A DNA stretch of 64,000 bases from a virus (taxonomy: Duplodnaviria > Caudoviricetes). Below, piece after piece: positions 1,176 through 63,820 of this stretch (its first letter is position 1; each line of letters opens with the position of its first letter). Both the position numbers and the translations under genes were made by a program. The notes beneath the pieces were generated by a model. That model had not been told where the DNA came from, did not search any database, and saw only the letters and a program-made list of their open reading frames with translations. The DNA lies in IMG/VR virus record IMGVR_UViG_3300029705_000039. One strand, given 5' to 3'.

Positions 1176-1382
1176 ATGGATTTTATATTTAACTCTCGTT
1201 AGAAAAAAGTAGAAATTTTTTATGAGAACGAAATAGAACAAAAAGCATTGTTTGAATTTCTTGGTAAGCATATAAAGTTTAAAACTGGCGGCATTCCCGA
1301 CAGCATATATATAAATAGTCCTGAAATTAGTTGGACTACTGTAAATACTTAGCCGCCTTATACTATAAGCACAGCAGATTAA
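1176..1382 (+). CDS. Hypothetical protein, TAG-recoded (2 in-frame TAG); frame continues past the TAA to 1547
   Basis: Promoter, RBS AAGGAG, ATG 1176; MDFIFNSR*KKVEIFYENEIEQKALFEFLG... Confidence 0.55.
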
Positions 1383-1583
1383 GCCATTACTTTAAATAAT
1401 GGTAATGTCTCTACTATTGACACCGCTTCAATAGAAAAAGCAGTTTCTAATTCAATTAATTCCAATTTTCGCGAAGCAAAAATTTCTTTAGAATTAGATA
1501 ACTCCTCTGATGAAGGTGGATATATTACTTGTTCCCCACAAAACTAAATAATAGGTCTCCGCATTATTGACCTTTATAAAAAT

Positions 1584-1797
1584 GCCGTGTGCCGTTACGT
1601 TAAGACAGGGAGGCAGACCCGCCGCAAGAATCTGCTCGCTCATTGACAATCGTCAGGGCGTCAATCCGTAGAACTCTACTACGGGTCAGGAGTAATCCAG
1701 TTAAGTGAGGGATGGTAGCGTAGTTATCGTAGGGCCGCTGATAACCCAGAAGAGCAATCTTCTGGAAGGTAAAATTTTTTTACCTTTGCCGTAGGGA
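1584..1797 (+). ncRNA. Candidate structured non-coding RNA of unknown family
   Basis: GC-rich intergenic island with serial stems: GCAGA..TCTGC, TTGAC..GTCAA, CCGTAG..CTACGG, GTTATC..GATAAC, CCAGAAGA-GCAA-TCTTCTGG, AAGGTAAAA..TTTTACCTT. Confidence 0.45.
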
Positions 1798-1830
1798 TTT
1801 ATTATTTTATAAAAATTATCTTAATATAAA

Positions 1831-1926
1831 CTCGTTGTCGTTCCGCTTCGCGGAACTCCGCACTTCGTTCTTGTGAAGATTGCTTCGTCTCGCACTGCGT
1901 GCTCAACGAACCAACTTCTACAAGAG
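1831..1926 (-). other. Cluster of GNA-triloop DNA mini-hairpins; candidate origin or priming signal
   Basis: Minus strand GTTCCGC-GAA-GCGGAAC (1840-1856), AC-GAA-GT (1862-1868), GCAC-GCA-GTGC (1892-1902), with AT-rich flanks. Confidence 0.35.
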
Positions 1927-2088
1927 AGTAAAAGATGAACGAAAAAATGTATATAATTATAAAGGGTTTAAGGATAAATTTGTCCGTAATCAAATTATTA
2001 TCGAGAAAACTTTTATCACAAAATAAATATACTTATTTACTTATAAAAGAGAGAAATCTCTCAAATTATTTTGGAGGATATTCTATAT

Positions 2089-4012: not shown

Positions 4013-4297
4013 ATGCCGAAAACTGTTTATGTATGTGAATATTGTCATACCGCTTATCCCAATCGTATGGATGCTCGTTGGTGCGAAATTCTCCACGAGC
4101 ATAAGACAGGTCTTGGTTTATATAATGAGCGAGTCATGGCAGAGATAAAGCGTCTTAATCAAAATCCTTGCGATTATTGCCGACGCGCATATTATGTATA
4201 TGGCTCTGAATGGAATTGTGATTGTCAAAAGAATTGTCATAATTTCTCTTTATTCATTGCCAAGGAGAATGAAAATGGTGACTCATTAGTTAATTGA
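4013..4297 (+). CDS. Cys-rich hypothetical protein (zinc-finger-like)
   Basis: RBS AAGGAG; CEYC..CE..H, CDYC, CDC..C. Confidence 0.7.
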   Translation: MPKTVYVCEYCHTAYPNRMDARWCEILHEHKTGLGLYNERVMAEIKRLNQNPCDYCRRAYYVYGSEWNCDCQKNCHNFSLFIAKENENGDSLVN

Positions 4298-4568
4298 CAA
4301 AAATGTATTCTCGCATATGGTAAACGAATTACCGCAAGTAGAATTTAATGGATAGATACTAATTCCTTTAAAACGAATTAATCAAATATTGTCTTTCCTA
4401 CCAATAGAAGTTCGTGGGAGAACTACTATGTAGAAAAATAGTTATAATACAATTCGATGCACCTATTGTGGAGAATTTTTACCTAATAGCGAAATGGAAG
4501 TAGCACATTTTAAATACTGCCCGTATTGCGGATTAGATATTGAAGAATTAAAATTTGACAATTATTAA
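4275..4568 (+). CDS. Zinc-ribbon protein, TAG-recoded (3 TAG)
   Basis: RBS AAGGAG; MVTH*LIDK...RCTYCGE...FKYCPYCG, ends TAA; absent from the ORF track. Confidence 0.75.
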
Positions 4569-6933: not shown

Positions 6934-7401
6934 TTGGCTAATTATTGGTATATAGATATTAATAGTAATAATTTAACCGCAGAAGTAGCCAGCGAAATTT
7001 TAAAATATACTGGTGAAAATCATTTTATTCGTAGTTTTAGTTATCAGCACGGTGATTGTGTAAATAGAAAAGTTGGCGGAAAACTTTATATGAATACTCG
7101 CGGCCTGCCCAATATCATCGATATTCTTAAAAAATATGATATTGCAGAGAGTGAAATAAAGTGTGAAGATGAGTTTGAGAGCGCTTGGACTGCGATTTTC
7201 GAACAGTATTTCGCCGACTTGCCCGTTACCAGGGAGTATCATTCTATTCTCGAAAAGAATATAAATGAAAAGATAATTGAGTTAGATTGGGATGGAAAAA
7301 ATTGGGACAAACTTGAAGATTACTTTAAAACTTGTTGGGGAAGTAGAAGTTTTCAATTCGAGCCTGAAAATTGGACGATTATTGGAATTAAAGAAGAATA
7401 A
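6934..7401 (+). CDS. Hypothetical protein
   Basis: RBS AAGGAGG, TTG start, 155 aa. Confidence 0.65.
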   Translation: MANYWYIDINSNNLTAEVASEILKYTGENHFIRSFSYQHGDCVNRKVGGKLYMNTRGLPNIIDILKKYDIAESEIKCEDEFESAWTAIFEQYFADLPVTREYHSILEKNINEKIIELDWDGKNWDKLEDYFKTCWGSRSFQFEPENWTIIGIKEE

Positions 7402-7429
7402 TATTGTTATTATAACAATGGAGGATTCT

Positions 7430-8065
7430 ATGAAACAAGGCGAAAGATATGGCGCTTTGACTCTAAGATACAAGGAAGGTAATTATTGGGTTTGTTCTTG
7501 TGATTGTGGAAATTAGAACGTAATAGCCGAAGCAAAAAATTTATTAAATCATTGTTATCCTTGCTGTGGCAAATGTAGGCGTTTAGGCACTTGGGCAATA
7601 AAAGAGGCAGGATTGCGTAAATAGAAAGCATTAAATATTGAGCATCAAGAAGTCGTGAAGAAAAATAAAAAACATTATTATTCTGAGACTTCCCGGGGCT
7701 ATATTAAGAGTTCTAAGAAAGAAACTATAATTTATAAAAAATTAACTCAACTAGGAAAAATATTTGAAACTGAAAAAGAGTTTGGTGTTTGCTACCCAGG
7801 AAGTTATACTCCTTTTAGATTTGATTTCTGTGTCGCTTCTTCTGAAAGTCCAGTTGGATTTTATTTAATTGAATATGACGGATAGCAACATCAAAAACCA
7901 ATTAAAATATTTGGTGGAGAAGCGCAATTTAAAAAGCAGCAATGGCGAGATCAGTATAAAAACCAATGGTGTAAAAATAATAACATTCCTTTAATTCGAA
8001 TTACGGGGAACGTTATTTCCGATGCTGATTTAGAACTTAAAACTACAGAATTCCGTGCGGTTTAA
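7430..8065 (+). CDS. Free-standing Vsr/DUF559-like endonuclease with N-terminal WxCxCDCGN domain, TAG-recoded (3 TAG)
   Basis: RBS GGAGG; WVCSCDCGN*; FRFDF...LIEYDG*QH...RDQYKNQWCKNNNIPLIRI; joins track ORFs 7292-7516 and 7655-7885. Confidence 0.85.
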
Positions 8066-8126: not shown

Positions 8127-10067
8127 ATGAATTATAATGTAGATTTTCAAAAAACTATTGAAGATGCTTTCCTTATTTATGGCGGAAGCGTCGCACAAGA
8201 GCGTTCTGTCCCTGATGTGCGTGATGGCTTAAAAATTGGTTTGCGGCAGGGACTTTATTCTCAGTATCATAGCAAGCTTACTCATTCCCATAAATTCCAA
8301 AAGGCTCAGAAGTCTGTCGCAGCAGCAATGAGTCTTTGTTATGTTCATGGCGACGCTGCTATGTATGATACCTTCATTCGCGCGGCAAAGCCTTGGGCAT
8401 ATCGGTATCCTCTTGAAGAAGCTCAAGGTGCCGTTGGCAGCCAAGCTTCTCCCGATGACCATTCTGCCGCTCGATATGTTGAAATGCGTAGCAGCGAACT
8501 GGCAGATTATTTATTCGCAGGTTTGAAGAAGAATGCAGTCAAGGATTGGTATAATAACTATGACGATACCGAAAAAATCCCCAGTGTTCTCTGCCCTGTT
8601 GGTTTTTGGCCGCTGATTAATGGCTGTCAGGGTATTGCTGTTAGTTTTTCTACAAGTTCTCCGCAGTATAATCTTCGAGAAGTAAATGCGGCTCTTGAAA
8701 AACTTATCCTCAATCCTGACGCCGATTTTAATAGCATTTATTGTGCTCCCGATTTTGCTACTGGTGGCATTGTGGTAAATGCACAAGAAACCAAAGAAAG
8801 CATTAAAAATGGTAGCGGTAAGGCTTGCCGCATTAGAGCAAAGCTTGAATATATGGGCAAGGAAAATTGTATTAAGGCAACGGAACTTCCTTACGGTGTT
8901 TATACCAATACCGTTATTGCCCAGCTTGCCGCTCTTACTGAGGAAGATGAAAATTATGGTATTGCGAAAGTAATCGACCATACAAAGAAAACCGCAGATA
9001 TTCGTATTTATCTAAATAAGGATGCTAATCCCGCAGTTATGATGCGGAAGCTTTACGCAGATACTTCTCTTGAAAGTTCTTTTGCGATTAATCAAATCTT
9101 TCTTGACCAAGGCCGCTTTCCGCGTGTATTCGGTTGGCGAGATGCTTGCCTTGCTTATATCGCTCATATGAATGAATGTAAGCGACGCGAACTGAAATTC
9201 GATATGGATGCTCTTATTCATCGCAATCATATCCTTGATGGCCTCAAAATTGCCCTCGCCAATATCGATGATGTTGTAGCCCTTATTCGCAACAGTGAAA
9301 ACGCGGCAAAGGCTAAGATTGGTCTAATGGAACGTTATGGTTTGGATGACGAGCAGGCCAAGGCAATTCTGGATATGAAGCTTCAGCGACTTGCTAATCT
9401 TGAGGCGATTAAGGTTAATACAGAGTTTGAAGAAAACGCCGCGAAAATCGACTATCTTGGCAACATTCTCGGCAGTCAGGATGAAGTTAATAAACTTCTA
9501 ATTGCGGCCTTGCGAGAAGTTGCGGAAAAGTTTGGCGATGCCCGCCGCACTCAGTTGATGAATCTGTCTGAACAGGTAGAAGAAATTAAGGAAGAAGAAG
9601 TAATTCTTAGTGTAAGTGGCAATACTATTAAGGTTGTTAAGCGTGGCGTAAAAGATATTATTAAAACCACCAATCTTAGCACTATTGTTTTCGTCACTGA
9701 TGAAGCAAAGATGTATAAGGTTCCTGTTGCTAATATTATCGAAGCAGGTAGCGCGAAAATTTCTACTCTTATCAAGGACAGTGCCACTATTGTATTTGTT
9801 GGCGATTTAGCACAAATCCAATTAAATAAATATTGGATGTTTGCTACAAAAGATGGTATGATTAAAAAGAGCGCCGTCGGAGAATATAATTATAACGGTC
9901 GCCAAGGCAATAAAATGATGAAGTTGCGGGAAAAAGATTCTATCATTTCTTGTGGAGTTTTCACTTCAGATTTGGAGAGTTTCAACTTTTTTGGCGGTGG
10001 TTCTGTTTTAGTGGGCAATGTAAAAGTCACCACTAAAACCGCAATGGGTAATAAAATGATTAAATGA
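8127..10067 (+). CDS. gyrA: Type IIA topoisomerase subunit A (GyrA/ParC-like, short C-terminal domain)
   Basis: PDVRDGLK, HGD, AARY (catalytic Tyr), NG..GIAV, PDFATGG, QAKAILDMKLQRL. Confidence 0.92.
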   Translation: MNYNVDFQKTIEDAFLIYGGSVAQERSVPDVRDGLKIGLRQGLYSQYHSKLTHSHKFQKAQKSVAAAMSLCYVHGDAAMYDTFIRAAKPWAYRYPLEEAQGAVGSQASPDDHSAARYVEMRSSELADYLFAGLKKNAVKDWYNNYDDTEKIPSVLCPVGFWPLINGCQGIAVSFSTSSPQYNLREVNAALEKLILNPDADFNSIYCAPDFATGGIVVNAQETKESIKNGSGKACRIRAKLEYMGKENCIKATELPYGVYTNTVIAQLAALTEEDENYGIAKVIDHTKKTADIRIYLNKDANPAVMMRKLYADTSLESSFAINQIFLDQGRFPRVFGWRDACLAYIAHMNECKRRELKFDMDALIHRNHILDGLKIALANIDDVVALIRNSENAAKAKIGLMERYGLDDEQAKAILDMKLQRLANLEAIKVNTEFEENAAKIDYLGNILGSQDEVNKLLIAALREVAEKFGDARRTQLMNLSEQVEEIKEEEVILSVSGNTIKVVKRGVKDIIKTTNLSTIVFVTDEAKMYKVPVANIIEAGSAKISTLIKDSATIVFVGDLAQIQLNKYWMFATKDGMIKKSAVGEYNYNGRQGNKMMKLREKDSIISCGVFTSDLESFNFFGGGSVLVGNVKVTTKTAMGNKMIK

Positions 10068-10077
10068 GGAGAAAAGA

Positions 10078-10446
10078 ATGAATAAGCAGTATTAGGAATT
10101 ATTTCAAATGGTAGCCCGCAACGGCGCGTTGAATGCGGAAAAAGCAATGGAAACATTAGGTGAGAATGCGGATGCCGAAAAGATAGACGTATTGGTTGAG
10201 ATGCGAGACCGTTTTAATCTTTTAGAGGATAAGTTTCTAAAAGGAGAAAGTGATTTTGAATTAACTGATTTTATGCAGTTATATGCGGGCGCGATGGTAT
10301 CTCGTAATATTATTCAGAAAAATATTGATACCTGGGCCGCGATTGTAAAGGAATATGACGATAATCTAATTCCCAAATTATATGAAGTAGCAAGCACTAC
10401 AGAAGATGCTAAACGTGCTTCATTAATTGAAGAATATTTTTCATAA
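10078..10446 (+). CDS. Hypothetical protein with a single TAG at codon 6
   Basis: RBS GAGGAG precedes ATG 10078, in frame with track ORF 10108; MNKQY*ELFQMVARN. Confidence 0.7.
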
Positions 10447-10447
10447 T

Positions 10448-10476
10448 TTGACAAAACTAAAATTTTAATATATAAT
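10448..10476 (+). promoter_or_regulatory. sigmaA-type promoter
   Basis: TTGACA-17bp-TATAAT. Confidence 0.8.
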
Positions 10477-10502
10477 ATTTATGTAATGAGGTAAATCAAA
10501 TT

Positions 10503-10859
10503 ATGACTGAAAATGCTAAAAAGGTTTTAAACTTTCTACAGAAAAATTATGGTAAAGAATTTACAAAACACGAAATTGTTGAAAAAATCGATATTAATAT
10601 GTCCGCGGTAAGTGGCTCTGTTAATGGATTAGTTAGTAGAGGGCTTGCGACTGAGCGAAGAGAACTCATTCAGGGGCGCTTTAAGGGTGAAAAAGATACT
10701 GAAATTCGTTATGTGAAATTAACTGAAAAAGGTAAAGAATATGACCCTGATGAAGAAGAACGTCGTCAAGCGGAAGCCCATCTTGAACTGGTCGCGGCAC
10801 GAAAGAAAGAACGAGCAAGGCTTAAAGCCGAACGTGCTAAATTAAATTCTGTACTATAA
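10503..10859 (+). CDS. Winged-helix (MarR-like) DNA-binding protein
   Basis: VLNFL..TKHEIVEKIDINMSAVSGSVNGLVSRGL...YVKLTEKG. Confidence 0.7.
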   Translation: MTENAKKVLNFLQKNYGKEFTKHEIVEKIDINMSAVSGSVNGLVSRGLATERRELIQGRFKGEKDTEIRYVKLTEKGKEYDPDEEERRQAEAHLELVAARKKERARLKAERAKLNSVL

Positions 10860-10901
10860 ATAATAAAATAATTAAAAGATATTTTGGAGGAAAAAGAAAT
10901 T

Positions 10902-11861
10902 ATGTATAAGTCTATTGATACCCCTGCTCTAAATAGTGTTGTAATTAATGGTGCTCTACTCGGTCTGGATATGCGTGAAGGCAAGAGCGCGCCTTCTAAG
11001 GGAAGCAAGCCTTATCGTTCTGTAAATGCTACTGTTCGTGTAAATCAGACTTATGGCGGCAAGAGCGAAGTAAGCGAACTTCCTGTAAGTTTTATTGCTA
11101 TGAAGCATAAGAAGGATGGCACTGATAACCCCGTATATGAAACTCTTGGCAAGTATGCTACTGAGTATCATACTGCTCAGAAGGATGGCATTGAGAATGC
11201 GACTAATGTAAATGTCAATGGCCGTCGTGGCAATGGCTCTCTAAGTGAGAATATGTTTGCCACTCCTCAGAATCCCGAAACTGTTGTTTCTGGTTGGAAT
11301 ATTAATGCCTCTTTCCTAAACGAAAATCGCAATGTTGCTCCTGGCAACAGTGGTGATTGTGCTACTTTTGATATTGAAATTTTCATCCTCAATCTAGACC
11401 GTGAAGTTTCTCCCGAAGGCGAAGAGACTGGACGTCTAAAGATTCGCGGCGGCGTAGTTAAGTTCGGTCGTAAGTTAGATTGTTTGGATTTCTTTGTAGA
11501 AGATAAGGGCGCGATTGATTATATCGAGCGCAACTATAATGTAAATGATACTGCTCACTTTGTTGGCCGCATTCGTTTCACTTCTGAAACTGTGTCTTAC
11601 GAAACCTCCAATACTTGGGGTGAATCCATTCCTCAGACTTCTACTCGTAAGAAGCGTGAGCTAATCATTACTGGTCCTGGTGTCGGCGGCGAAGATGGTC
11701 CCTATGATGAGGAACGTTCCTATGACCCTGAAGATATTCGTGTTCTGGTTGCCGACCGCAACGCTCTAAAGGAACAGAAGAAGATGGAAGCTCGTGCCAA
11801 GGCTTCCAAGCCCACAGCAAGCGCGGCAGCACCTAAGCCCACTTACGGTTGGGAAGAGTAA
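10902..11861 (+). CDS. Putative single-stranded DNA-binding protein (tandem OB-fold-like)
   Basis: RBS GGAGG; beta-rich duplicated pattern, acidic/aromatic C-tail (YGWEE), located next to the Sak4-like ATPase. Confidence 0.55.
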   Translation: MYKSIDTPALNSVVINGALLGLDMREGKSAPSKGSKPYRSVNATVRVNQTYGGKSEVSELPVSFIAMKHKKDGTDNPVYETLGKYATEYHTAQKDGIENATNVNVNGRRGNGSLSENMFATPQNPETVVSGWNINASFLNENRNVAPGNSGDCATFDIEIFILNLDREVSPEGEETGRLKIRGGVVKFGRKLDCLDFFVEDKGAIDYIERNYNVNDTAHFVGRIRFTSETVSYETSNTWGESIPQTSTRKKRELIITGPGVGGEDGPYDEERSYDPEDIRVLVADRNALKEQKKMEARAKASKPTASAAAPKPTYGWEE

Positions 11862-11873
11862 TCTCTTCCCACC
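11848..11873 (+). terminator. Stem-loop at the end of the SSB-like gene
   Basis: GGGAAGAG-TAAT-CTCTTCCC; no clear U-tract. Confidence 0.35.
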
Positions 11874-11926
11874 GTCCCCTCGTAGAATAAATAAGAAAGA
11901 TATAAGAAAGGAGAATATAATTAATT

Positions 11927-12919: not shown

Positions 12920-12938
12920 TAGAGGTTAGATAGATAAT

Positions 12939-12995: not shown

Positions 12996-13020
12996 GGTTA
13001 TAGAAAGGTGGTATATAAAT

Positions 13021-53580: not shown

Positions 53581-54345
53581 TTAAAAAGACATAGTCTTTA
53601 TCCAATGAGAAAGTTTGTTTTTGTCAATCTTCGCGCCCGCTAATGAAGCGCGAGTATTTATATCAAACTCTTCACGCCAACTCATACGTTTGAGTTGGTC
53701 TTGGAGAGCGTAATATGTTAAATCCCAAATATTTAGCATATTATAAGCCTAACTTCCAATGGTAAGTGAAGCTATCATATCTGATAATTCAATATCGCTA
53801 CCATCTTTCTTCTTTGCTTTTCGTTTCGCTTCCTCTCTGTCCTTGCGGCCTTTGAGAAGTTTTTTCTTTAAAGCACGAACTCTAGGAGAATCACTTTCTA
53901 GAAATTCTAGCGTGTCCTCTTTAGGGTCGCGCATCGCGCAAGCGAGAGCTACTAAATCTGAAAATCCTTGGAAATTGTCGTTAGTCAATATCCTCTTCTC
54001 AGAGAAGTCTCCTAAAACAATTGAAGGAGTTGGGTCAGAAATAAAAGTAGGCTTTTCCTCGGTAAAAAAGTTAAAAGCGGCACTAATTAATTTATGATTT
54101 TCTTTATCCATCTATGCCAACAAAATAAGATACTCAAAATCTGTAAGCGGAGATAATAACTTTTGAACTTCAGCATCTTCAACCGTAGGTTTTTGTATTG
54201 TCATAAAGGAGATATACTAATAAAATCGGTCTAATCCCTCCGCGGCTATATCCTTCAAAAAGGGGGATTTTACCAAACAAACATCCGAATAAATAACCGG
54301 TTTGCCGCTTAAGAACTTTAAAATTCTACTATCAGTTGAACTCAT
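53581..54345 (-). CDS. Virion/tail assembly protein, TAG-recoded
   Basis: ATG 54345 to TAA 53581 in frame with track ORF 53749-54111; C-terminal NIWDLTYYALQDQ..HWIK. Confidence 0.65.
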
Positions 54346-54817
54346 TTATTTTATAATACATAGAATAGCCGCCCAACTGAGGAGATAATACCAAAGGAGT
54401 AGCATGGGAAAACTGTAAGTTCCCTATGCCGCTTAATTTTGCCTGATTAAACAGGACGTCAATTTCTTGCATAATTAGATATGGCCGCAAACTATCAGCA
54501 TCAATTACCCATTCACTATAAGGACAAACAATATCAAATCTAATACGAGTTACCTTAAAGTCTGGATTCGCGGGATTGATAGTAAAATTATCAAACACAG
54601 CAATAATAAAAGAGCACTCAATTCCCTCTTCAGGAATTTTAGGAACAATAACAATCTATTTATGTAATAAATCTGCTCCATTAACATCTTCATATTTATC
54701 ACTGAAAGGGTCTGTATCCTGATACTTTAAAAGCCGGCATATTTTTTGATTGTGAATTAAACGGTCTGCTATTTTAAATAGGTTTTCACCCATTACAGCA
54801 AATCTACGTTGAGACAT
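54332..54817 (-). CDS. Putative tail completion/terminator protein, TAG-recoded
   Basis: RBS AGGTGG; one TAG joins the N-terminal part to track ORF 54332-54598 (RFDIVC..W..LRPYLIM). Confidence 0.65.
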
Positions 54818-54819
54818 TA

Positions 54820-56022
54820 TTATACCACCTACCATAACGCGACGACTTTAATTTTCTTTGTATAAACCTTATCCTTATACTTAGCAGTTAATGTAAATGT
54901 TCCTATTTTATTCTTAGAATTGGCAGTAATGGAACAATGATTTCCTTCGGAAATCATAGTAGCCAAATCAGTCGCACCAATATCAAACTCAACCTAATCG
55001 GCATTTTCTAAGATATACTCATTTGTAGTAGTTAAACGAATACGCTCATTGCCAATAAAAATCGGTTGAATAGTAGCCTCTGCGCCAATAACTATTGTCT
55101 ATGTTGCAGAAACACCATTATAAGAAACTGTGACGGTGCCGCCGCCGGCTTCATGTGCCTAGATAAGTCCGTTTTCTAAAAGAGTTAGATTACCATCTAC
55201 ATTGATTTGACCTTTAATATCCTAAAGAACCCCATCTTTAGAAATAGAATAATTTAAATCTATTATAGTATTAGGCTATACGATTTGATTCTTAGGCATA
55301 TCAATAGACCAAACTGCTAACTTATCAATATTCGCTATACTTTGATTTACATCATCACGTTGCTGATTTAAATTAGTTTCAGTGAAAGACATATGAATCA
55401 CACCTGGCACTGAATTCTAATCATAGTCAACCAAATACCAAACTTCATCTAGCACCATAATCTCCGTATTAATTGCCATTAACTAATGCGGCATTATGAT
55501 ATGAATATGTTTGTTTGGTTGTGGTGTAATCATATCATTCCAGGTTCTAAAATTATCCTTAATCTTGGAATCTTTAGAACCTAATAAATACACCCAACTT
55601 TCTTTTAAAATACCAGTTGTATCAATCCACTTAATATAGTGATTGCAACGCACCATATAAAACTTTTGATGCGGCTAATAAGAGGAAGTGGTAGAACGAT
55701 AAATCAACCACACCTCATTGTTCCACTCTATTAAGTCTCCCTGTTTTAGGGCCGGGCCGCCATCTTCAAGAACTTTGGTTAGAAGAATTTGAGAAACTCG
55801 ATTGTCGTCTTCCTTATCTGTAAGAATGACTCCATCAAAAGTCTCAAAAACTTCGGCTTTTGTCAAATCTTGAATATTGCTAATAGATTTTAAGCCATAC
55901 TATGTATGCTAATTATATTTTAAATAACGACGAAATTCTAATATACCAGAATTAAAGGCTCTTTCTTGCGGCGAAGTTCCTAAATGAGAAATCCGTTTTT
56001 TATAAACTTCAAGATAACTCAT
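54820..56022 (-). CDS. Putative head-closure/neck protein with C-terminal beta-rich (Ig-like) region, TAG-recoded
   Basis: MSYLEVYKKRI...LKQGDLIEWNNEVWLIY..CNHYIKW; ends LW*VV then TAA. Confidence 0.65.
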
Positions 56023-56269
56023 TTTTACTTAACTCCGTTACTAAGTTCATACACTCGAAAATAGTGCGACGAAAGTATTCATAATTTAAATACTTTAAAG
56101 AACTTAGCTTCCCAATCAAAGTCCAATAATTAATGGTACGATTGTTATTTTGAAAACCCATTAGTTCAACGATTATAGTATCCAAGAATTTTTCCCAAGC
56201 GCCCTCTTTTTCCTTTTCACATAAAAGGCCGTATAAACGGCCTTTTAGTTTATTATAATAACCCATCAT
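56009..56269 (-). CDS. Hypothetical protein
   Basis: 86 aa, overlapped with neighbours in the operon. Confidence 0.65.
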   Translation of the reverse strand: MMGYYNKLKGRLYGLLCEKEKEGAWEKFLDTIIVELMGFQNNNRTINYWTLIGKLSSLKYLNYEYFRRTIFECMNLVTELSKNELS

Positions 56270-56706
56270 TTACCGGCGAGCTTCCCAAATATTTTATTTG
56301 GCTTATAATGTTCTGCGCGGCCATACCTATCTAATAGTAAGCGGCATTCATCGCGAACCTGTTCACCAGTTTTATTTAGTTTATCAAGGAAATTAGCTTG
56401 TGAAAAATCTTTATCGCTATAAAGTTGTCGAATGTTGTCCCAAGTCGCAATACAGCGGCGAACCCATTCTAACTTCATTAGATTTGCTATAACCTAAATC
56501 TCGTCATTACTTAAATCTTCGTTAAAGGTGGCGGAATCTTTATCGTAATCTAAGGATACTCTTGGATACCGGAATTGAACTATCGCCGAATCTAAAATCA
56601 TCCGCCAATCTTCTGAAACGATATCGTATGCTTCTGTTAGCATCCAATCATCTGCTTCAATTTTAGAAAGAAAAGCATCATAAACATTCTATAAAGGAGT
56701 AGCCAT
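56266..56706 (-). CDS. Putative head-tail adaptor, TAG-recoded (2 TAG)
   Basis: RBS GGAGGT; MATPL*NVYDAFLSKI...FNEDLSNDEI*VIANLMKLEW..YSDKDFSQAN. Confidence 0.7.
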
Positions 56707-56720
56707 ACGGCCGCACCTCC

Positions 56721-57161
56721 TTAATTCATAGAGCGCTGTAAGTTTAGAGCCTGTAGTACATCTACGCCACAATGAGTTTTGATTAATGCTACTCGGGGCG
56801 CATCCATTATAGAGAACTTAATGGCTGCCGCGATAATCTTATCCTTCATTGCAGGAGAAGCTTCTTTTAAAATACGCGCTAATTCTTGTACAGTGCCTTT
56901 AGTCACTAAATCCTCAGCATTAACATCAATGTCCTTAGGAATTTCAGGCATTGCTTCCTTTACTTCCGCGTCATCTGTAATAACTTTAATAAAGCCATTG
57001 CGCACATAATTGCGGCAACCATTATCATAGTTAAACTCTTCAAAAACGTCATCGGGCATTGTAGTTTCATGACCGGGGTTTAAATCACGACGATAACGAA
57101 CGTTATCCAAAATAATACTAATGCGATAGCCGCTAGTATTCTTAATCCTTACTTTACTCAT
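56721..57161 (-). CDS. Hypothetical virion-region protein
   Basis: RBS AAGGAG, 146 aa, no TAG. Confidence 0.7.
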   Translation of the reverse strand: MSKVRIKNTSGYRISIILDNVRYRRDLNPGHETTMPDDVFEEFNYDNGCRNYVRNGFIKVITDDAEVKEAMPEIPKDIDVNAEDLVTKGTVQELARILKEASPAMKDKIIAAAIKFSIMDAPRVALIKTHCGVDVLQALNLQRSMN

Positions 57162-57230: not shown

Positions 57231-58265
57231 TTAAGCCTGAATCTCGTCATGGCCCCAAGCATCGATGCCGGAGTTGTAGTAAATGCCCCAATAGTTGGGA
57301 GCAGATACGATACCAACACCAACTTTCTTGTAGCCCTGGATTTCCATAGAACGATCAGTATTCTTCCACTCATCGATGATGGTCTGGCCAACTAGAGCAA
57401 CCTTTACTAGCTTCTCTTTGCCAGCAGGAATTACATAAGCAAAACGGGGGTCGAAGACTAGCTTCTCGTTGCTGTCATCCTCGAAAGAGTTGGGGATTAC
57501 AACGACAGGAGCGCCAGCGAACTTACCAATGTAGCCGTATTCGCGGATTTCGTCGATTTCCCTATCAGAAACCTTATAGCCATCTGGAGTAGCAACAACA
57601 TTTAGCATGGTAGAAGCGAATAGAGCAGAGCAGTAGATTACAGGAGCACCATAAGCGCCTACAACCTGCACTAGCTGAGCCATCTTCTGATAGTCGAAGG
57701 TGTTAGCAGAAACCTTGTTGTTAGCGGGACGGCCAGTGTTGTTCCACTGAGCGGCTAAGCAGCCCTGGATCTCACGGAAAATCTGAGTCATCATACCATC
57801 TAGGATGATTTCATAAATCTCAGCGATATCCTCTAGACCATCTAGGTAGCGCTCGAAGTCGATGATACCAGCACCGCCAATGGTGTGGGATTCTACTTCC
57901 ATGTAGTCATAGTCTAAACGGAAGGTCTCGTATACACCAGAATTGGTAGCACGAGTTACGAACTGACGACCACGCTGGGCGCCACGCTTTACCTTGAAGA
58001 CTAGACGATCGTTATTACCATACTGAGAAACCTCAGCAAAGGAGCCAATTAGCTCTAGAACCTTGCGGGGTAGAACTTCCTCAGCATTCTGAGCTAGTAG
58101 GTCAAATAGTTCATACTTATTACGACGATATAGAGAATAAGTACCAACTAGCTTCTTAATTTCATCACGAAGAGCGGCTTCGTAATCAATGTTCTCGTTG
58201 GCAAATTCAACGGGAATATTGCGGCCCATGGCGCAATCTAATAGCTGTTTAATAGTTAGATTCAT
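57231..58265 (-). CDS. Major capsid protein
   Basis: 344 aa, strong codon bias, position after scaffold and decoration genes, GYIGKFAGAPVVVIPNSF. Confidence 0.8.
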   Translation of the reverse strand: MNLTIKQLLDCAMGRNIPVEFANENIDYEAALRDEIKKLVGTYSLYRRNKYELFDLLAQNAEEVLPRKVLELIGSFAEVSQYGNNDRLVFKVKRGAQRGRQFVTRATNSGVYETFRLDYDYMEVESHTIGGAGIIDFERYLDGLEDIAEIYEIILDGMMTQIFREIQGCLAAQWNNTGRPANNKVSANTFDYQKMAQLVQVVGAYGAPVIYCSALFASTMLNVVATPDGYKVSDREIDEIREYGYIGKFAGAPVVVIPNSFEDDSNEKLVFDPRFAYVIPAGKEKLVKVALVGQTIIDEWKNTDRSMEIQGYKKVGVGIVSAPNYWGIYYNSGIDAWGHDEIQA

Positions 58266-60246: not shown

Positions 60247-60249
60247 TCC

Positions 60250-61827
60250 TTAGGTTGCGCCCTCAAGATTTTTATCAGTCTTGTCGGAGCGTTCCTCAAT
60301 ATTTTTCTGTGGTCTACCGCCCTCATCACTTAAGTTTGGATTGGAGGTGGTCTTCTCTGGAATTTTTTCCCCGTCAGAAGATTTTTCTTCTTTTCCGGAA
60401 GTTGTATAAGAAGATTGTAGCGGCACCATAGATTTTTCTAGATGTAACACATTATTTTCGAAGTCTGTGATTTGCGCCAAATCGATAATATCCAAACCAA
60501 TAACAGAAGCAACGGTTTGTTTCGGATAACCATATTGCGCAGTTTTTAGATACATATCTACATCTTCCTTGCGGAAAATAGAAGAAGTGGGTAATAGTTT
60601 GATTGAGAAATAAAGCGCATCATTTTTAGCCTTACGCCGCAAGAAACTATTAATCGCCAACTCGTATTGATGGCTCCAAGCAAACATAAGAGAGATATCT
60701 TTCTTAATTGAGAAAGTCAAAGCGGTGGAGCCGCTGTCGGCGTTGAAAATTATAGAAGAGGTTCCTAAATCATCATATACACTATTTAAATATTTTTTCA
60801 AACGTGTAGCAGAAGAAGAGGCACTTGCTTCGGTATCCTAAACGTTCTCTAAACTGATATCAGCATAGGTGGTAATAACATCAATTGTATCATCTTCCGC
60901 CAGCATATTACACACACTTTCGTGTAATACTTCTGCTTCTGGCAAACTAAATAATAGTTCCCCATCAGTTTTATTAATAGGTAGCTTATGAATTAATAAC
61001 TTCCTTAATTCATTTTCATCGTGGCGTGCTTCGCGTTCCCGCGCTTGTTCTAATTCTTGCGCCGCGATAGTTGCGGATACAAATGGCGGAGTGTGGTCTT
61101 CATTGAAGAAGAAGCAAAGTCCGCCTTCGCTTGCGGGAATTTCCGCCCAGAATTCTTTATTTCTTTTATTTAGATATAGTGCCTAAACATATTTAGGGAA
61201 TAATTTTAGAATTAATTTACGCTCAATATCATTAGATGCTACTGCGTCAAAATATGAGAGATTTAATTCTAAAATTGGCAATCCATCGGCATCCAAGAAT
61301 CGGCTGCGGCAATAGCGGGCAGGCAACTTATAAAAAGCAGGTTTTTCTCCTTCGCTTTCTATCAAAAGCCCGTAATAGATACCCTCTGCTAAAACCGTTA
61401 AATTAATCTTTGGCAATACATAATCCAAGTGCATATCTTTAATATACTTAGAAATCTTCTTGTATGCCGGCTTCATCTTCTTGGGCCGCGAATCAATATC
61501 ATAGTGCGGAACAATTACATAACCATAATTTAATAAAGTCGCATAATATTGCAAGGGGCGCGCATAAGTCCCACTAAAGCGACTATAGTATTTAGATAGT
61601 TCGCGTATGGACTCCGGGTCACCACTTTCTAAAATCTACCGAATTTCTTCCTTAGTAAATCCGATAGAAGATACACCATAATGACCGCGGCCATAGCGTT
61701 CTCTATAACTATTGACTTGCTGTGGAACTTTGACAGCCTTCTTGGCAAAACTTTCAAACTCAGTTAAATCACGGCCAGGTTTTGCCGCATTTTGAGACTG
61801 AGCCTAAATCGGTTTTTCATTCGCCAT
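60250..61827 (-). CDS. Portal protein, TAG-recoded
   Basis: RBS GGAGG; MANEKPI*AQ...; track fragments 61183-61554 and 60250-60801 share a frame; PLQSSYT; lies between terminase and protease. Confidence 0.8.
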
Positions 61828-61833
61828 TGCTTA

Positions 61834-62395
61834 TCAATGCCTCCGTTTATTTCTTGAAGAAAAGAAGGTCATTTTAGAAGCATCCGTAATACCGGTTTTC
61901 TTTTTCCGCACTTCTTTATCTTCATAATACTTGATACGATATAATCCATAACTTAAAGCAGAAACACGGTCTTTGTTAATGCGGCGAGAAATTTGCTCGA
62001 CCGCTATTTGCCCTGCCGCGCCACTGGCTTTTAATTTTAGATTATTCATCTCATCAATAAGTCGCGAAGTCATGGTATAAGGTAGAAGAAATTTTTCCCG
62101 ACTTAAATAATTCATTTTCTGGCCTTTTTTTGTAGTCATTAGTTTATCTTTTACGATACGTTCATTAGCGAGTAATAATAAATTGCCACTATTAATTTGA
62201 ACGTAAAGATTAGAATAAATTTCACTATTCATTGTCGCGTTGGCTTTAATATTGAAAATAACCGCATTAGGACTTTTCTCTTGGCCGCGAGGAATAGGGT
62301 AATTGTCCTAATCGTTAATTACATAAAGCGGTTCATAGGTTTCGCCATTTGGGCCATACGAAGGAACAACTAGAGCATCAATTAGACCGGCACCA
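61834..62395 (-). CDS. terL: Terminase large subunit, last exon (nuclease end), contains TAG
   Basis: |GAGLIDALV...LIDEMNNLK...KDRVSALSYG. Confidence 0.85.
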
Positions 62396-63209
62396 CATTT
62401 ATATTCCATAAGAGTCGCTAATTCTTACGCGGGATTTTACCCAGCTTTACATTACTGTAAAGATTAGACTATATCTTCACCCATAATATTATGGGGCTCT
62501 CCACTTCGGGCCGCTTGGCCCTACGGCTTTCGCCTAGTCGTTGAACGTTCAAGAAAAATCAATATTTTCAGTTAAATACGCCCATCGTTCGTGGCGGCGA
62601 ATAGAATTTGCGTAGTCTTTACATAGTCCATACATTCTATCGATTTCCGCACCAGAATATTTTTTTGATAATAATAAATCTATTATTTCTAAAACTTGTT
62701 TTTCAGTCAGTTTACTTAGATTATTATTCTCACCACGCTAGGTTTTTAAACCAATATTAAAAGCGTGTTTTACATTCTCAGAACAAGTGGCCCATTCTAA
62801 ATTACTTATATGATTATTTAATTTATTGCCGTCAATATGATTAACCTACAAAGTATCCATATCATTACGAGGGGAAAAATTCTCCAACATTAGACGATGA
62901 ACGGAATAAGTATGACGTTTATTATCTTTTGAAATTAATCGCACTTTTTCATATCCATATCTATCAAGATGTGTAGATAGAAATCGTTTGCTAAAGTGGC
63001 TATATACTTTTCCATCCTCAGTTAAAGAATAATCATACTTCAAATCATATTTAGAATAGGTAATTGGGAATAATTTTTCCATAATATTTAAGCCTCCAAT
63101 AAAAGCTTTATTTTTCTTGCTTCGCTGCTGATTGTCCCAGAGGGAGTTCCCAGCAATTCAGAGAGTTTTTCAAATAGCTTACGCTATAAGGGCGCTAAGT
63201 GCTATTTTA
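62396..63209 (-). mobile_element. Group I intron in terminase
   Basis: Splicing restores IDGNGV|GAGLID. P1 GGCGU/GCGCC with U.G; GAAUUGCUGGGAA, AAUCAGCAG, UCAACGACUA, AAGAUAUAGUCU; terminal G 62396. Confidence 0.92.
62549..63082 (-). CDS. Intron-encoded HNH homing endonuclease, TAG-recoded (2 TAG)
   Basis: [49 protein letters not shown]. Confidence 0.9.
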
Positions 63210-63820
63210 ACGCCATTACCGTCGATTACAACCTCTTTTGGTCTATATTCTTTTACTAGTCCTTTGATGTGCGCGGCCTAGGCTAAAAGGTTCATTTTAG
63301 TGAGGTTTTGTGTAAATACCACTTCTTTGCGCCAGCCGCCATCACGAGGTTTGACTTTAAATACAAAGATAGAGGTATCGTTTTCGCCATATCTTGCGAC
63401 GTCAACTGACATTAAATAAAACCAACCCTTATTAACTTGATCTTGAGTAAGGTTATATTTTTTTTCGCAATGTAAGAGAGCGCGTGATTTTTCTAACTTT
63501 TTGGCATTGAACCAAGAATCAGAGGAACCGCCAGTCCATATACTCATAGATTCACGAGCAAAACCATCGCTGGAGAATGAACTGGAAAGTTTTTGGTCTT
63601 GAATAGTTTTCTTATCAAATAGGCCATATCGTAATGGTAATTCGTAGCTGGCGCCGCAAATAAAGTAATCTTCAGGCTCCAATACGGCTAAGGTAGTTAA
63701 TTCTATTAAACGTTCGTAAGCAAAAGTATTCTTTGAGCCAGCGCTCGTGATATATATCTACTATGAATGAGGTTCTTCGTCGTTCTGGCCGCCATCTGCT
63801 GTCATTCGCGGAATATTCAT
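63210..63820 (-). CDS. terL: Terminase large subunit, internal exon, contains TAGs
   Basis: EPHS**IYITSAG, FARESMSIW, SVDVAR..D, VVIDGNG. Confidence 0.85.

What the first reader, a model, noticed from the sequence alone, without database searches (positions are those of the whole stretch)
1176..63820. Phage reassigns TAG to glutamine; at least 18 genes are hidden or fragmented in the standard-code track
Seen in sequence: TAG occupies conserved Gln sites, namely GIY-YIG YIG*T (24697), [12 protein letters not shown] (62846), RuvC ENI*YQ and NL*GV, and terminase S**IYITSAG; it also interrupts the endonuclease motif IEYDG*QH. Track fragments in the tail and TMP regions end in TAG and share one frame over 6.3 kb and 11.9 kb. 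Real genes end in TAA or TGA. Established: code 15 recoding is known in gut phages of standard-code hosts, so the phenomenon is not new, but it changes the whole annotation here.
Basis: partly seen in the sequence, partly recalled or inferred. Interest (0 to 1): 0.85.

Follow-up and report, generated by a model that had tools for sequence, protein, structure and literature searches.

The report
Gut phage reading TAG as glutamine
This fragment of a large gut phage reads the stop codon TAG as glutamine in its virion and DNA-cutting genes, a known phage habit, but its TAG-reading tRNA carries an unusual extra hairpin that copies the normal glutamine anticodon loop.

Summary
With TAG read as sense, gene density in the window rises from 0.76 to 0.97 (late half 0.65 to 0.99). 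Eighteen ORFs of at least 100 aa carry 186 in-frame TAGs. The 2,100- and 3,974-codon frames have no TAA or TGA. TAG is never a terminator.

Codon-level comparison with four related phage contigs shows TAG opposite CAA/CAG at 36-42% of sites. Ordinary Gln is conserved at 44-52% and the background is 4%. Gln beats every other residue by at least 36 nats.

TAG is absent from replication genes and from the capsid and tail-tube genes. It is present in low-copy virion genes, RuvC and most homing endonucleases. This is the code 15, late-gene-gated recoding already published (Borges et al.; phAss-1), so the recoding itself is a new member of a known kind.

Two points go beyond the finding. TerL and NrdD stay split under code 15, because group-I-intron-like inserts with endonuclease genes interrupt them. 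The suppressor tRNA(CUA), outside the window, has a tRNA-Gln body plus a covarying extra hairpin whose loop is a Gln (CUG) anticodon loop. That design recurs in many phages, including published phAss-1. I found no paper describing it, although this scan had already noted it on other genomes. Its function is inferred, not shown.

The parts
30918..37220 (-). 2,100-aa tail/host-recognition protein ORF with 32 in-frame TAG
   Evidence: Open only with TAG as sense. It has no in-frame TAA or TGA and no Pfam match.
37239..39002 (-). 587-aa distal-tail (Dit-like) protein ORF, 4 TAG
   Evidence: weak PHROG match to distal tail protein.
39008..50932 (-). 3,974-aa tape measure protein ORF with 81 in-frame TAG
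   Evidence: PF10145 PhageMin_Tail at aa 526-735. No TAA or TGA in 3,974 codons. Relatives have tape measure genes of 2,621 aa or more and 4,693 aa.
50992..51801 (-). 269-aa virion structural protein ORF, 5 TAG
   Evidence: phrog_2729.
53581..54345 (-). 254-aa YomV-like tail protein ORF, 3 TAG
   Evidence: phrog_4051; homologues in relatives carry PF27211 YomV_2nd.
54332..54835 (-). 167-aa YomW-like ORF, 1 TAG
   Evidence: positional homologue of PF27256 YomW genes in relatives.
54820..56022 (-). 400-aa virion protein ORF, 11 TAG
   Evidence: phrog_5251. The intact 397-402-aa homologues in L006 and L007 supplied many of the Gln-aligned TAG sites.
56266..56772 (-). 168-aa head-tail ORF, 2 TAG
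   Evidence: phrog_3853.
57231..58265 (-). Major capsid protein (YonB family), TAG-free
   Evidence: PF27364 YonB on homologues; 0 TAG. It shows that abundant virion proteins avoid TAG.
60250..61827 (-). Portal protein ORF, 525 aa, 4 TAG
   Evidence: The phrog_2739 portal match spans aa 57-520, covering three of the four TAGs (the first lies near the N terminus). Relatives have Q at two TAG columns, while at the other two L004 itself has TAG and L006/L007 have Glu, Arg or a gap.
61837..62394 (-). TerL piece 3 (aa 412-597 of the uninterrupted homologue), 1 TAG
   Evidence: tblastn with L004 TerL, 93% identity.
62395..63196 (-). Insert in TerL: group-I-intron-like RNA plus HNH endonuclease ORF (62549-63082, 2 TAG)
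   Evidence: Rfam Intron_gpI at 62445-62686 (-), 44.4 bits, E 1.3e-9, below the gathering score. PF13392 HNH_3. Absent from the L004 TerL.
63197..63820 (-). TerL piece 2 (aa 207-415), 3 TAG including the S**IYITSAG motif
   Evidence: Relatives have QQ and Q at the TAG sites.
63821..64000 (-). Start of the second TerL insert, which runs on beyond the window to about 65012 and holds a 301-aa Zn-finger/DUF723 ORF with 3 TAG. TerL piece 1 lies at window-equivalent 65013-65630.
   Evidence: Partial Intron_gpI hit at 63854-64000 (-), E 9e-5.
24646..25206 (+). GIY-YIG homing endonuclease ORF (4 TAG) inside the insert that splits nrdD (23261-24532 and 25332-26339)
   Evidence: PF01541. The two NRDD halves cover profile positions 2-268 and 264-562. 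Weak Intron_gpI hit at 25136-25326, E 0.006.
27032..28033 (+). 333-aa GIY-YIG protein ORF, 15 TAG (highest TAG density, 4.5%)
29758..30498 (+). RuvC-like resolvase ORF, 246 aa, 10 TAG
   Evidence: PF02075 RuvC at aa 80-223; motifs confirmed.
7277..8065 (+). Endonuclease-like ORF (DUF2726-type, IEYDG*QH), up to 4 TAG, between gyrB and gyrA. The true start is probably downstream of 7277.
4194..4568 (+). 124-aa ORF, 3 TAG, function unknown
8127..24532 (+). TAG-free replication and nucleotide-metabolism block: gyrA, AAA_24 ATPase, DnaB-like helicase, RecJ-like, Pol III alpha, NrdD N-half. The only TAG lies at the 5' edge of ORF 10078-10446.
   Evidence: TAG appears neither as sense nor as stop.

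Best explanation
The window is the middle of an 88.8-kb fragment, about 54% complete, of a large SPbeta-like siphovirus from a gut or similar anaerobic community. The phage uses genetic code 15, with TAG read as glutamine, in a module-specific way.

Replication and nucleotide-metabolism genes, and the most abundant virion proteins (capsid, tail tube), contain no TAG at all, either as sense or as stop. They can therefore be translated by an unmodified host ribosome. Low-copy virion proteins (portal, terminase, tape measure, tail tip), the RuvC-like resolvase and most homing endonucleases contain 1 to 81 TAGs each. They can be completed only once an amber suppressor is active.

The suppressor is a phage tRNA(CUA) at the start of the contig (G000:C1:238-328, outside the window). 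It has a tRNA-Gln body: weak U1-A72 pair, G2-C71, G3-C70, G73, G10, U35, and a Gln-type D arm. No aaRS, amidotransferase or release-factor gene is present in the fragment, so a host enzyme, most likely GlnRS, charges it.

Shown here: the reading frames, the Gln identity of TAG by comparison with relatives, the distribution of TAG over gene classes, the tRNA and its covariation-supported structure, and the Gln-anticodon-like loop of its extra arm.

Inferred: that recoding delays virion and nuclease production (the model of Borges et al.); that host GlnRS is the charging enzyme; that the extra CUG hairpin helps that enzyme accept a tRNA whose real anticodon is CUA; and that termination at TAG by RF1 is almost completely overcome late in infection. 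The last follows because 81 TAGs in one ORF demand near-100% suppression per codon.
For: Frames and density.

TAG aligned with CAA/CAG in four relatives, and the reverse. Likelihood ranking with Gln first by 36-173 nats. Residue-level examples in TerL and portal.

CAG is halved in TAG-rich genes (1.38% to 0.70%) while TAG reaches 2.06%.

TAG is never a terminator.

Gene functions. SPbeta-type virion module (YonB, YonD, YonG, YomU, YomV, YomW families).

tRNA(CUA): (Rfam tRNA, 50.6 bits). Cloverleaf with extra helix: 95% of cells paired, 14 pairs with compensatory change, 0 of 500 shuffles as good; MFE folds.

Extra-arm loop C(U/C)CUGAA against the real loop CUCUAAA. In an unbiased scan, 47 of 75 distinct long-arm CUA tRNA cores have an N-Y-(CUG/UUG)-R-N 7-nt hairpin loop, against a shuffle mean of 2.4 and 0 of 85 real Ser/Leu/Tyr arms.

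No RF-1, GlnRS/GluRS or GatB domain in six frames of the contig. None of 5 complete carriers of such tRNAs has a GlnRS/GluRS gene.

Candidate host family (Acutalibacteraceae) has GlnRS in 30 of 31 genomes, and its tRNA-Gln(CUG) has the same D stem and the loop CUCUGAC.
Against: There is no protein-level evidence (no proteomics) and no expression data.

The contig is only about 54% complete. A second, ordinary-length tRNA(CUA), a release factor or an aaRS could lie in the missing part. L012, L013 and phAss-1 carry a long and a short CUA tRNA side by side.

The host link is weak. The only hit in a bacterial bin is a contig that is itself TAG-recoded, so it is probably phage DNA binned with the MAG.

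Total Gln is not depleted in TAG-rich genes, so that internal test is only suggestive.

Short CUA suppressors without an extra arm exist in other phages, so the arm is not strictly required for suppression. In a canonical L-shaped tRNA a 3-bp variable-arm hairpin would sit far from the anticodon-binding domain of GlnRS, so the decoy idea needs an unusual binding mode.

One homing endonuclease in the late module (51855-52646) is TAG-free, so nuclease gating is not universal.
Confidence: 0.9

Rival explanations
1. TAG is read as an amino acid other than glutamine. Serine is the main candidate, since the suppressor has a long extra arm and G73 like bacterial tRNA-Ser. Leu, Tyr, Glu and Lys are other candidates.
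For: ARAGORN draws a 21-nt variable region, which is class-II-like. Some family members have A73, as Leu and Tyr tRNAs do. Earlier notes of this scan report other phages where TAG seems to mean Ser or Glu (not tested here).
Against: At TAG sites relatives have Ser 5-8%, Leu 2-3%, Tyr 3-4%, Glu 9-10% and Lys 4-6%, against Gln 36-42%. The self-conservation of those residues in the same alignments is 45-75%. The log-likelihood gap to the next best residue is at least 36 nats. The tRNA body is class I and Gln-like (4-bp D stem, AAUGG D loop, weak 1:72 pair). The extra helix is only 3 bp with a 7-nt loop, unlike Ser/Leu/Tyr arms.
Confidence: 0.03
2. The TAGs are real stops and the late genes are broken. 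The contig would be a decaying or defective phage, or the TAGs would be assembly or sequencing errors.
For: Under code 11 the late half looks like a field of fragments, with density 0.65.
Against: There are 235 in-frame TAGs in ORFs of at least 100 aa, but zero in-frame TAA or TGA in the same frames. Homology to relatives runs straight through the TAGs. Related contigs from independent samples share some of the same TAG positions (7 shared with L004). A matching suppressor tRNA is encoded.
Confidence: 0.01
3. Recoding is real, but the extra arm of the tRNA(CUA) has nothing to do with aminoacylation. It would be a leftover of a partial duplication of the anticodon arm, or serve another purpose: a binding site for a phage protein or modification enzyme, protection from host anticodon nucleases, or tuning of tRNA processing or stability.
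For: Suppressors without the arm exist. In a standard tRNA fold the variable arm points away from the anticodon. E. coli supE shows, from established knowledge, that a plain tRNA-Gln(CUA) is charged by GlnRS.
Against: A neutral leftover would not keep an invariant Y-CUG/UUG-R loop on a covarying stem across lineages with different acceptor stems and different capsids. The loop triplet is specifically a Gln anticodon (CUG 28, UUG 7, no other real triplet enriched). That points to Gln-specific recognition rather than a generic protein site.
Confidence: 0.35
4. The host itself reads TAG as Gln, so the phage simply matches its host and nothing is switched during infection.
For: Not excluded directly, since the host is unknown.
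Against: The replication genes avoid TAG completely, both as sense and as stop. A phage matched to a TAG=Gln host would not be expected to do that. The phage carries its own tRNA(CUA). The surveys by Borges et al. predict standard-code Firmicutes and Bacteroidetes hosts for such phages. The GlnRS genes of the candidate host family are open frames without internal stops, which is only weak evidence.
Confidence: 0.02

Closest known systems
Code 15 (TAG to Gln) gut phages with late-gene-biased recoding: crAss-like, Lak, Garnet, Amethyst, Agate and Topaz clades (Borges et al., bioRxiv 10.1101/2021.08.26.457843; metaproteomic proof for crAss-like phages, PMC9523058)
   Same: TAG is sense in structural genes, replication genes are compatible with the standard code, the phage encodes a tRNA(CUA), it has no phage aaRS, and close relatives have few or no in-frame TAGs.
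   Different: This is a different phage lineage, with an SPbeta-type virion module. Here TAG also marks homing endonucleases and a RuvC-like resolvase inside the early block, and it is avoided in the capsid and tail-tube genes. No lysis genes were identified in this fragment, so the lysis-timing part of the model could not be examined.
phAss-1 and the proposed Phassvirus group (PMC10607447; GenBank OQ749652.1, 'Caudoviricetes code 15 clade')
   Same: A large gut siphovirus-like phage with many tRNAs, TAG in TerL, portal, tape measure and tail genes, tRNA-Sup-CTA genes, no aaRS, and a predicted Clostridia host. Its portal is a distant homologue (27% identity). It carries a 91-nt CUA tRNA with the same CUCUGAA extra loop next to a 75-nt one.
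   Different: It is only distantly related. The paper does not mention the extra arm (no occurrence of 'variable').
Bacillus phage SPbeta (SPBc2) and relatives
   Same: Pol III alpha (YorL-like, 35% identity) and virion proteins of the YonB, YonD, YonG, YomU, YomV and YomW Pfam families.
   Different: SPbeta uses the standard code, is a temperate Bacillus phage and has a much shorter tape measure. Identities are low.
E. coli supE (tRNA-Gln2 with anticodon CUA), from established knowledge
   Same: A tRNA-Gln body with anticodon CUA that inserts Gln at UAG. It shares the identity elements U1-A72, G2-C71, G3-C70, G73, G10 and U35.
   Different: supE has a normal 5-nt variable loop and is a weak suppressor arising by point mutation. 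The phage tRNA has a conserved 20-21-nt extra arm with a second, Gln-type anticodon loop, and it must support near-complete reassignment.
Class II tRNAs (Ser, Leu, Tyr, Sec) and allo-tRNAs (PMC5389517)
   Same: A long variable region, and G73 in some members.
   Different: The acceptor/T arrangement is 7/5, not 8/4 or 9/3. The D arm is class I type. The extra helix is only 3 bp with a 7-nt anticodon-like loop, which none of 85 real Ser/Leu/Tyr arms shows. TAG sites do not align with Ser, Leu or Tyr.

Membership tests
Genetic code 15 phage (TAG reassigned to Gln) | In-frame TAG in otherwise intact, homologous genes, with no comparable in-frame TAA or TGA | tested here: met
   186 TAGs in 18 window ORFs. 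There are 0 TAA/TGA in frames of 2,100 and 3,974 codons. Homology runs through the TAGs.
Genetic code 15 phage (TAG reassigned to Gln) | Coding density gain specific to TAG-as-sense | tested here: met
   0.763 to 0.966 with TAG as sense; the TGA-as-sense control gives 0.775.
Genetic code 15 phage (TAG reassigned to Gln) | Homologue columns at TAG enriched for Gln over all other residues | tested here: met
   Gln at 36-42% of TAG sites against a 4% background. Gln is first in likelihood by 36-173 nats.
Genetic code 15 phage (TAG reassigned to Gln) | TAG not used as a terminator | tested here: met
   0 of 38 TAG-free ORFs have TAG as their first stop.
Genetic code 15 phage (TAG reassigned to Gln) | Gln actually incorporated at TAG in the protein | not testable with these tools
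   This needs proteomics of virions or infected cells.
Phage-encoded amber suppressor tRNA (tRNA-Sup-CTA) | tRNA gene with anticodon CUA and a valid cloverleaf in the same genome | tested here: met
   G000:C1:238-328. Found by ARAGORN and Rfam tRNA at 50.6 bits, with covariation support.
tRNA-Gln identity (E. coli GlnRS identity set, from established knowledge) | Weak or unpaired 1:72, G2-C71, G3-C70, G73, G10, U35, and a short variable loop | tested here: inconclusive
   The own tRNA has U1-A72, G2-C71, G3-C70, G73, G10 and U35. Position 36 is A, not G, as in supE. The variable region is 21 nt, not 4-5. Relatives vary at 3:70 and 73. Actual charging was not tested.
Class II tRNA-Ser-type suppressor (supD-like) | Long variable arm with a stem of at least 4-5 bp and a short loop, a class II D arm, and Ser at TAG-aligned sites | tested here: not met
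   The extra arm has a 3-bp stem and a 7-nt loop, the D stem is 4 bp with an AAUGG loop, and Ser sits at only 5-8% of TAG sites.
Code-change module with phage release factor and aaRS (as in Jade and Lak phages) | Phage-encoded RF2 or RF1, or a cognate aaRS | tested here: not met
   No RF-1, tRNA-synt_1c or GatB_N domain in six frames of the contig. The contig is only about 54% complete, so absence from the whole phage is not shown.
Group I intron with homing endonuclease (inserts in TerL and nrdD) | Host gene continuous in relatives, insert carrying a HEG, and a group I ribozyme fold | tested here: inconclusive
   TerL is uninterrupted in L004 and L006, and HEG ORFs are present. Rfam Intron_gpI hits are significant but below gathering: 44.4 bits E 1.3e-9, 28.2 bits E 9e-5, 21.6 bits E 0.006. 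Splicing was not tested.

The most novel reading that the evidence does not exclude
The suppressor tRNA(CUA) that enables this recoding belongs to a widespread but undescribed class of two-headed phage tRNAs. The real anticodon arm (CUA) reads UAG on the ribosome. A second mini-arm in the variable region displays the cognate Gln anticodon loop (CUG or UUG) to the host's glutamine-charging enzyme. The anticodon change would otherwise weaken recognition, and the second arm restores efficient and specific glutaminylation. If so, phages have evolved a modular way to uncouple tRNA identity from decoding.
Probability: 0.4. Interest if true: 0.85.

Novelty: new member of a known kind. Interest (0 to 1): 0.5.

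Why it matters
For annotation, reading this contig with code 11 breaks or hides the whole virion module. The portal, terminase, a 3,974-aa tape measure and a 2,100-aa tail protein all appear as dozens of fragments. Any gene catalogue, host-range prediction or taxonomy built on such calls is wrong, and translation table 15 should be used.

For biology, the contig adds an SPbeta-like, probably Clostridia-infecting lineage to the phages that gate late functions by stop-codon reassignment. It also shows a sharper pattern than usual. TAG is excluded from replication genes and from the most abundant virion proteins. It is concentrated in low-copy virion proteins and in DNA-cutting enzymes (three GIY-YIG, one HNH, a DUF2726-type nuclease, RuvC), including endonucleases sitting inside introns of essential genes. 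A very close relative (82% capsid identity) has no TAG at all in the same 21 kb, neither as sense nor as stop, which gives a natural pair for studying how the switch evolves.

The most interesting thread is the suppressor tRNA. Its extra hairpin with a Gln anticodon loop may explain how host enzymes charge stop-codon-reading tRNAs efficiently enough to read 81 TAGs in one gene. If so, it could also serve as a template for engineered orthogonal suppressors.

Tried and rejected
- Amino-acid composition test. Total Gln is not lower in TAG-rich genes. Only CAG is halved, so the test is suggestive and not decisive.
- The search for related loci with the portal protein alone in viral contigs found nothing. 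Cultured-phage relatives are under 30% identical and too distant for site-level inference. I used metagenomic relatives reached through the TAG-free capsid gene instead.
- PDB sequence searches with the RuvC-like and HNH proteins. The RuvC query gave only spurious repeat-protein hits. I-HmuI has Val opposite the HNH TAG. Neither informs the code.
- Pairwise identity of the tRNA body to Gln, Ser, Leu, Tyr and Glu tRNAs did not discriminate. Structural features did.
- My first family scan for the long tRNA required CTGAA in the pattern, so the conservation of CUG in alignment A2 is partly circular. I repeated the scan without that constraint.
- The automatic 'longest stem' choice of hairpin register split the signal between registers. 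I replaced it with an any-register count with controls.
- Rfam at gathering threshold found no introns. Only the E-value mode on short stretches gave sub-threshold group I hits. L003:1-1200 gave nothing credible.
- Host assignment. The single hit in species-representative genomes is a contig that is itself TAG-recoded, so it is not proof of a prophage or of the host.
- Anchoring on the radical-SAM-operon gene next to the tRNA. One recoded relative (L035) has a long CUA tRNA nearby. One contig whose anchor gene translates under the standard code (L036) has none within 21 kb. One recoded relative (L037) also has none in that stretch. This is too little to establish co-occurrence.

Full report
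**What the window is.** The window is G000:C1:20682-84681 of a single 88,844-bp linear viral contig that CheckV rates about 54% complete.

The plus strand of the first 31 kb encodes early and middle functions. These are a Clp protease, PhoH, GyrB and GyrA, an AAA_24 ATPase, a DnaB-like helicase, a RecJ-like nuclease, Pol III alpha, a split NrdD with its activase, and dUTPase.

The minus strand from 30.9 kb to the window end encodes the virion module. In related contigs this module carries the SPbeta-specific Pfam families YonB (capsid), YonD, YonG, YomU (tube), YomV and YomW. Cultured relatives are distant: Pol III alpha is 35% identical to SPbeta's, and the portal is under 30% identical to those of Bacillus and Lactococcus phages and the gut phage phAss-1.

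**Checking the observation.** Under the standard code the late half is a field of fragments. With TAG read through it becomes a compact operon.
- Greedy gene density in the window rises from 0.763 to 0.966. In the late half it rises from 0.652 to 0.986.
- Reading TGA through instead gives only 0.775. For the whole contig the figures are 0.748 and 0.933.
30918-37220 is 2,100 codons with 32 TAG. 39008-50932 is 3,974 codons with 81 TAG.
- Neither frame contains a single TAA or TGA, although about 100 and 190 would be expected in unconstrained sequence (log10 P of -45 and -84).
- Eighteen window ORFs of at least 100 aa contain 186 TAGs. In one of them (10078-10446) the only TAG may lie upstream of the real start.
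- TAG is never a terminator. In the 38 TAG-free ORFs of the contig the first stop of any kind is TAA 30 times, TGA 8 times and TAG never, though TAG and TGA trinucleotides are equally common (P about 0.0007).

**Which amino acid.** The TAG-free capsid gene has hundreds of metagenomic relatives from 97% to 56% identity. I fetched about 21 kb around it from four of them. L004, L005 and L007 are themselves recoded. L006 has no in-frame TAG at all.

tblastn with TAG masked as X, mapped back to codons, shows this genome's TAG opposite CAA or CAG far more often than anything else. The relatives' TAGs likewise sit opposite this genome's CAA or CAG.

In L006 alone, 20 of 48 aligned TAG sites are Gln. 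Over all four loci the count is 75 of 208. The fraction (0.36-0.42) is close to the self-conservation of ordinary Gln in the same alignments (0.44-0.52) and about ten times the background Gln frequency (0.035-0.041).

I scored the observed residues against the empirical substitution profile of each of the 20 amino acids. Gln is first by 36 nats (L006 only), 66 nats (L006 and L007) and 173 nats (all four). Ser, Leu, Tyr, Trp, Glu and Lys are all far behind.

Concrete cases:
- TerL PHS**IYITSAG here against PHSQQIYITSAG in L004 and PHSQQVYITSAG in L005, and PHQQQNYISSAG in L006.
- A*AAHIK here against AQAAHIK.
- Portal PKYV*ALY and LENV*DTEA here against Q in all three relatives.

Within the genome, CAG falls from 1.38% of codons in TAG-free genes to 0.70% in TAG-rich genes, where TAG is 2.06%. 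That fits CAG-to-TAG transitions, but total Gln is not depleted, so this internal test alone would not have been decisive. Comparison with solved structures added nothing.

**Where TAG is and is not.**
- The replication block (8127-24532) and the other plus-strand enzymes are TAG-free.
- In the plus-strand half, the TAG-bearing ORFs of known function are all nucleases. They are two GIY-YIG proteins (24646-25206 with 4 TAG; 27032-28033 with 15 TAG), a DUF2726-type endonuclease (7277-8065) and a RuvC-like resolvase (29758-30498 with 10 TAG). A third GIY-YIG with 10 TAGs lies just upstream of the window.
- In the virion module TAG is frequent in portal, terminase, tape measure, tail tip and several minor proteins. 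It is absent from the capsid, the YonD-like protein, the tube protein and an I-HmuI-like HNH endonuclease.

This matches the published model that recoding keeps late or dangerous functions untranslatable until the code is switched. Two details are added here: abundant proteins avoid TAG, and DNA-cutting enzymes are preferentially marked. The temporal interpretation is inference, since no expression data could be obtained.

**Not all fragmentation is due to TAG.** The terminase of L004 (597 aa, uninterrupted) maps to three separate stretches here: aa 1-206, 207-415 and 412-597. Inserts of 1.2 and 0.8 kb separate them, each holding an endonuclease ORF.

Rfam in E-value mode finds group I intron matches in both inserts. 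They score 44.4 bits (E 1.3e-9) and 28.2 bits (E 9e-5, cut by the window end), both below the gathering score. The reading frame of piece 2 leaves the TerL alignment right after VVIDGNGV.

nrdD is split in the same way around a GIY-YIG ORF, with a weak intron hit. These genes remain split under table 15.

**How TAG is decoded.** There is no tRNA in the window. The contig has 23, mostly in arrays upstream, and one has anticodon CUA (C1:238-328, 91 nt). No release-factor, GlnRS/GluRS-type or GatB domain is found in any of the six frames or among annotated ORFs. Since the contig is about half a genome, this limits the claim to the fragment.

The tRNA has the acceptor and core features of tRNA-Gln: U1-A72, G2-C71, G3-C70, G73, G10, U35, a 4-bp D stem and an AAUGG D loop. 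Its variable region, however, is 21 nt long.

Related long CUA tRNAs exist in many IMG/VR contigs. In an alignment of 11 distinct sequences the five-helix structure pairs in 95% of cells, with 14 pairs showing compensatory changes and no shuffle reaching the observed values. The 3-bp extra helix itself covaries, G-C to U-A at two of its pairs. Position 1:72 is always U-A or a mismatch. Minimum-free-energy folds give the same five-arm shape.

**The extra arm.** Earlier notes of this scan on other genomes suggested that such arms copy the tRNA-Gln anticodon loop. I tested this here.
- The loop is CUCUGAA in 10 of 11 aligned sequences and CCCUGAA in this genome. That is a pyrimidine, then CUG, then a purine, and it differs from the tRNA's real loop CUCUAAA by one base.
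- My first scan pattern contained CTGAA, so I repeated the search with a pattern fixing only the CUA loop, a long gap and the T arm.
- Of 75 distinct cores, 47 have a hairpin with a 7-nt loop N-Y-(CUG or UUG)-R-N. Shuffled variable regions give 2.4 on average (maximum 7). None of 85 real Ser, Leu or Tyr tRNAs from the same loci has one. CUG (28) and UUG (7) are the only genuinely enriched central triplets.
- Carriers include complete genomes with a related capsid (39-43% identity) and complete genomes without any detectable homologue of it. None of five complete carriers encodes a GlnRS/GluRS-type enzyme, and one has a release-factor domain.
- The published phage phAss-1 has a 91-nt CUA tRNA with the same loop beside a 75-nt one. 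Its paper does not mention this. Three literature searches found no description of the design.

**Host and charging enzyme.** The only hit for the capsid among species-representative genomes is a contig in an Acutalibacteraceae MAG. That contig is itself TAG-recoded, so it is a weak host hint. In that family 30 of 31 genomes encode a full GlnRS. The MAG's tRNA-Gln(CUG) has the same D stem (GUGU/GCAC), G73 and the loop CUCUGAC.

Direct charging of the phage tRNA by a host GlnRS is therefore plausible. The idea that the spare CUG loop feeds the enzyme's anticodon-binding site is attractive but unproven. In a canonical tRNA fold the variable arm is far from the anticodon, and arm-less CUA suppressors exist.

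**Verdict.** The recoding is a clear but already known phenomenon in a lineage not specifically described, so it is a new member of a known kind.

The suppressor tRNA with a second, Gln-type anticodon loop is the part that could be new biology. It lies outside the window, and this scan has already found it on other DNA. Its function rests on sequence statistics only.

Noticed in passing
window 61837-64000, continuing to window-equivalent 65630 (L003:1-1712): The large terminase gene is in three pieces, corresponding to aa 1-206, 207-415 and 412-597 of the uninterrupted 597-aa homologue in L004 (89-93% identical). Two inserts separate them, each with an endonuclease ORF (HNH; Zn-finger/DUF723) and sub-threshold group I intron signals. 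The endonuclease ORFs themselves contain TAG.
   Followed up: partly
window 23261-26339: The anaerobic ribonucleotide reductase gene nrdD is split at 24532/25332 by an insert holding a GIY-YIG endonuclease ORF (4 TAG). There is a weak group I intron hit at 25136-25326 (E 0.006).
   Followed up: partly
window 39008-50932 (-): The tape measure protein is 3,974 aa, and 4,693 aa in relative L004. By the usual rule of about 1.5 angstrom per residue, that would mean a tail of roughly 0.6 micrometre, unless much of the protein is not ruler.
   Followed up: no
window 52717-53562, 57231-60246 (-): Within the TAG-rich late module, the capsid (YonB), the YonD-like 465-aa protein, a 181-aa protein and the tail tube (YomU-like) have no TAG at all. 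TAG seems to be avoided in the most abundant virion proteins.
   Followed up: partly
window 51855-52646 (-): An I-HmuI-like HNH/NUMOD homing endonuclease sits between virion genes and, unlike the other endonucleases, is TAG-free.
   Followed up: no
L006 (Logan SRR19576307 contig, 21 kb around the capsid gene): This relative, with 82% capsid identity, has no in-frame TAG and also no TAG terminator in 23 genes. It may represent a TAG-free intermediate state between the codes.
   Followed up: partly
L001:97-237: Between tRNA-Leu(CAA) and the tRNA(CUA) lies a tRNA-like piece with a T arm and an internal GCCA.
   Followed up: no
L001:11850-11930: ARAGORN calls a tRNA with a four-base anticodon here, and Rfam scores it 36 bits. 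No intact tRNA-Gln(UUG/CUG) was found in the contig.
   Followed up: no
L001:7087-7200: An Rfam 'drum' RNA (75.8 bits) lies inside the tRNA array.
   Followed up: no
L001:9379-9933 and L001:15647-16939: The phage carries a formate/nitrite-transporter-like gene and a xanthine/uracil permease family gene. Both are TAG-free and are possible auxiliary metabolic genes.
   Followed up: no
L001:448-5160: Directly downstream of the suppressor tRNA is an operon with two radical-SAM-type enzymes and a glycosyltransferase. It is conserved next to tRNA arrays in relatives (L035-L037).
   Followed up: partly
L033 (Acutalibacteraceae MAG contig JAZQTG010000088.1): The contig carrying a 53%-identical capsid gene is itself TAG-recoded (ORF coverage 0.69 to 0.92). 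It is probably phage DNA binned with the MAG rather than host chromosome.
   Followed up: partly
G034:C1:133964-134293 (IMG/VR 3300031555_003801): One of five complete phage genomes carrying the long-arm tRNA(CUA) encodes a release-factor-domain protein (113 bits, 356-aa frame). The others do not.
   Followed up: no
OQ749652.1 (phAss-1) 62,4xx-62,6xx; L134:1487-1655: The published phage phAss-1 has a 91-nt CUA tRNA with the CUCUGAA extra loop immediately beside a 75-nt CUA tRNA. L012 and L013 show the same long-plus-short pairing.
   Followed up: partly
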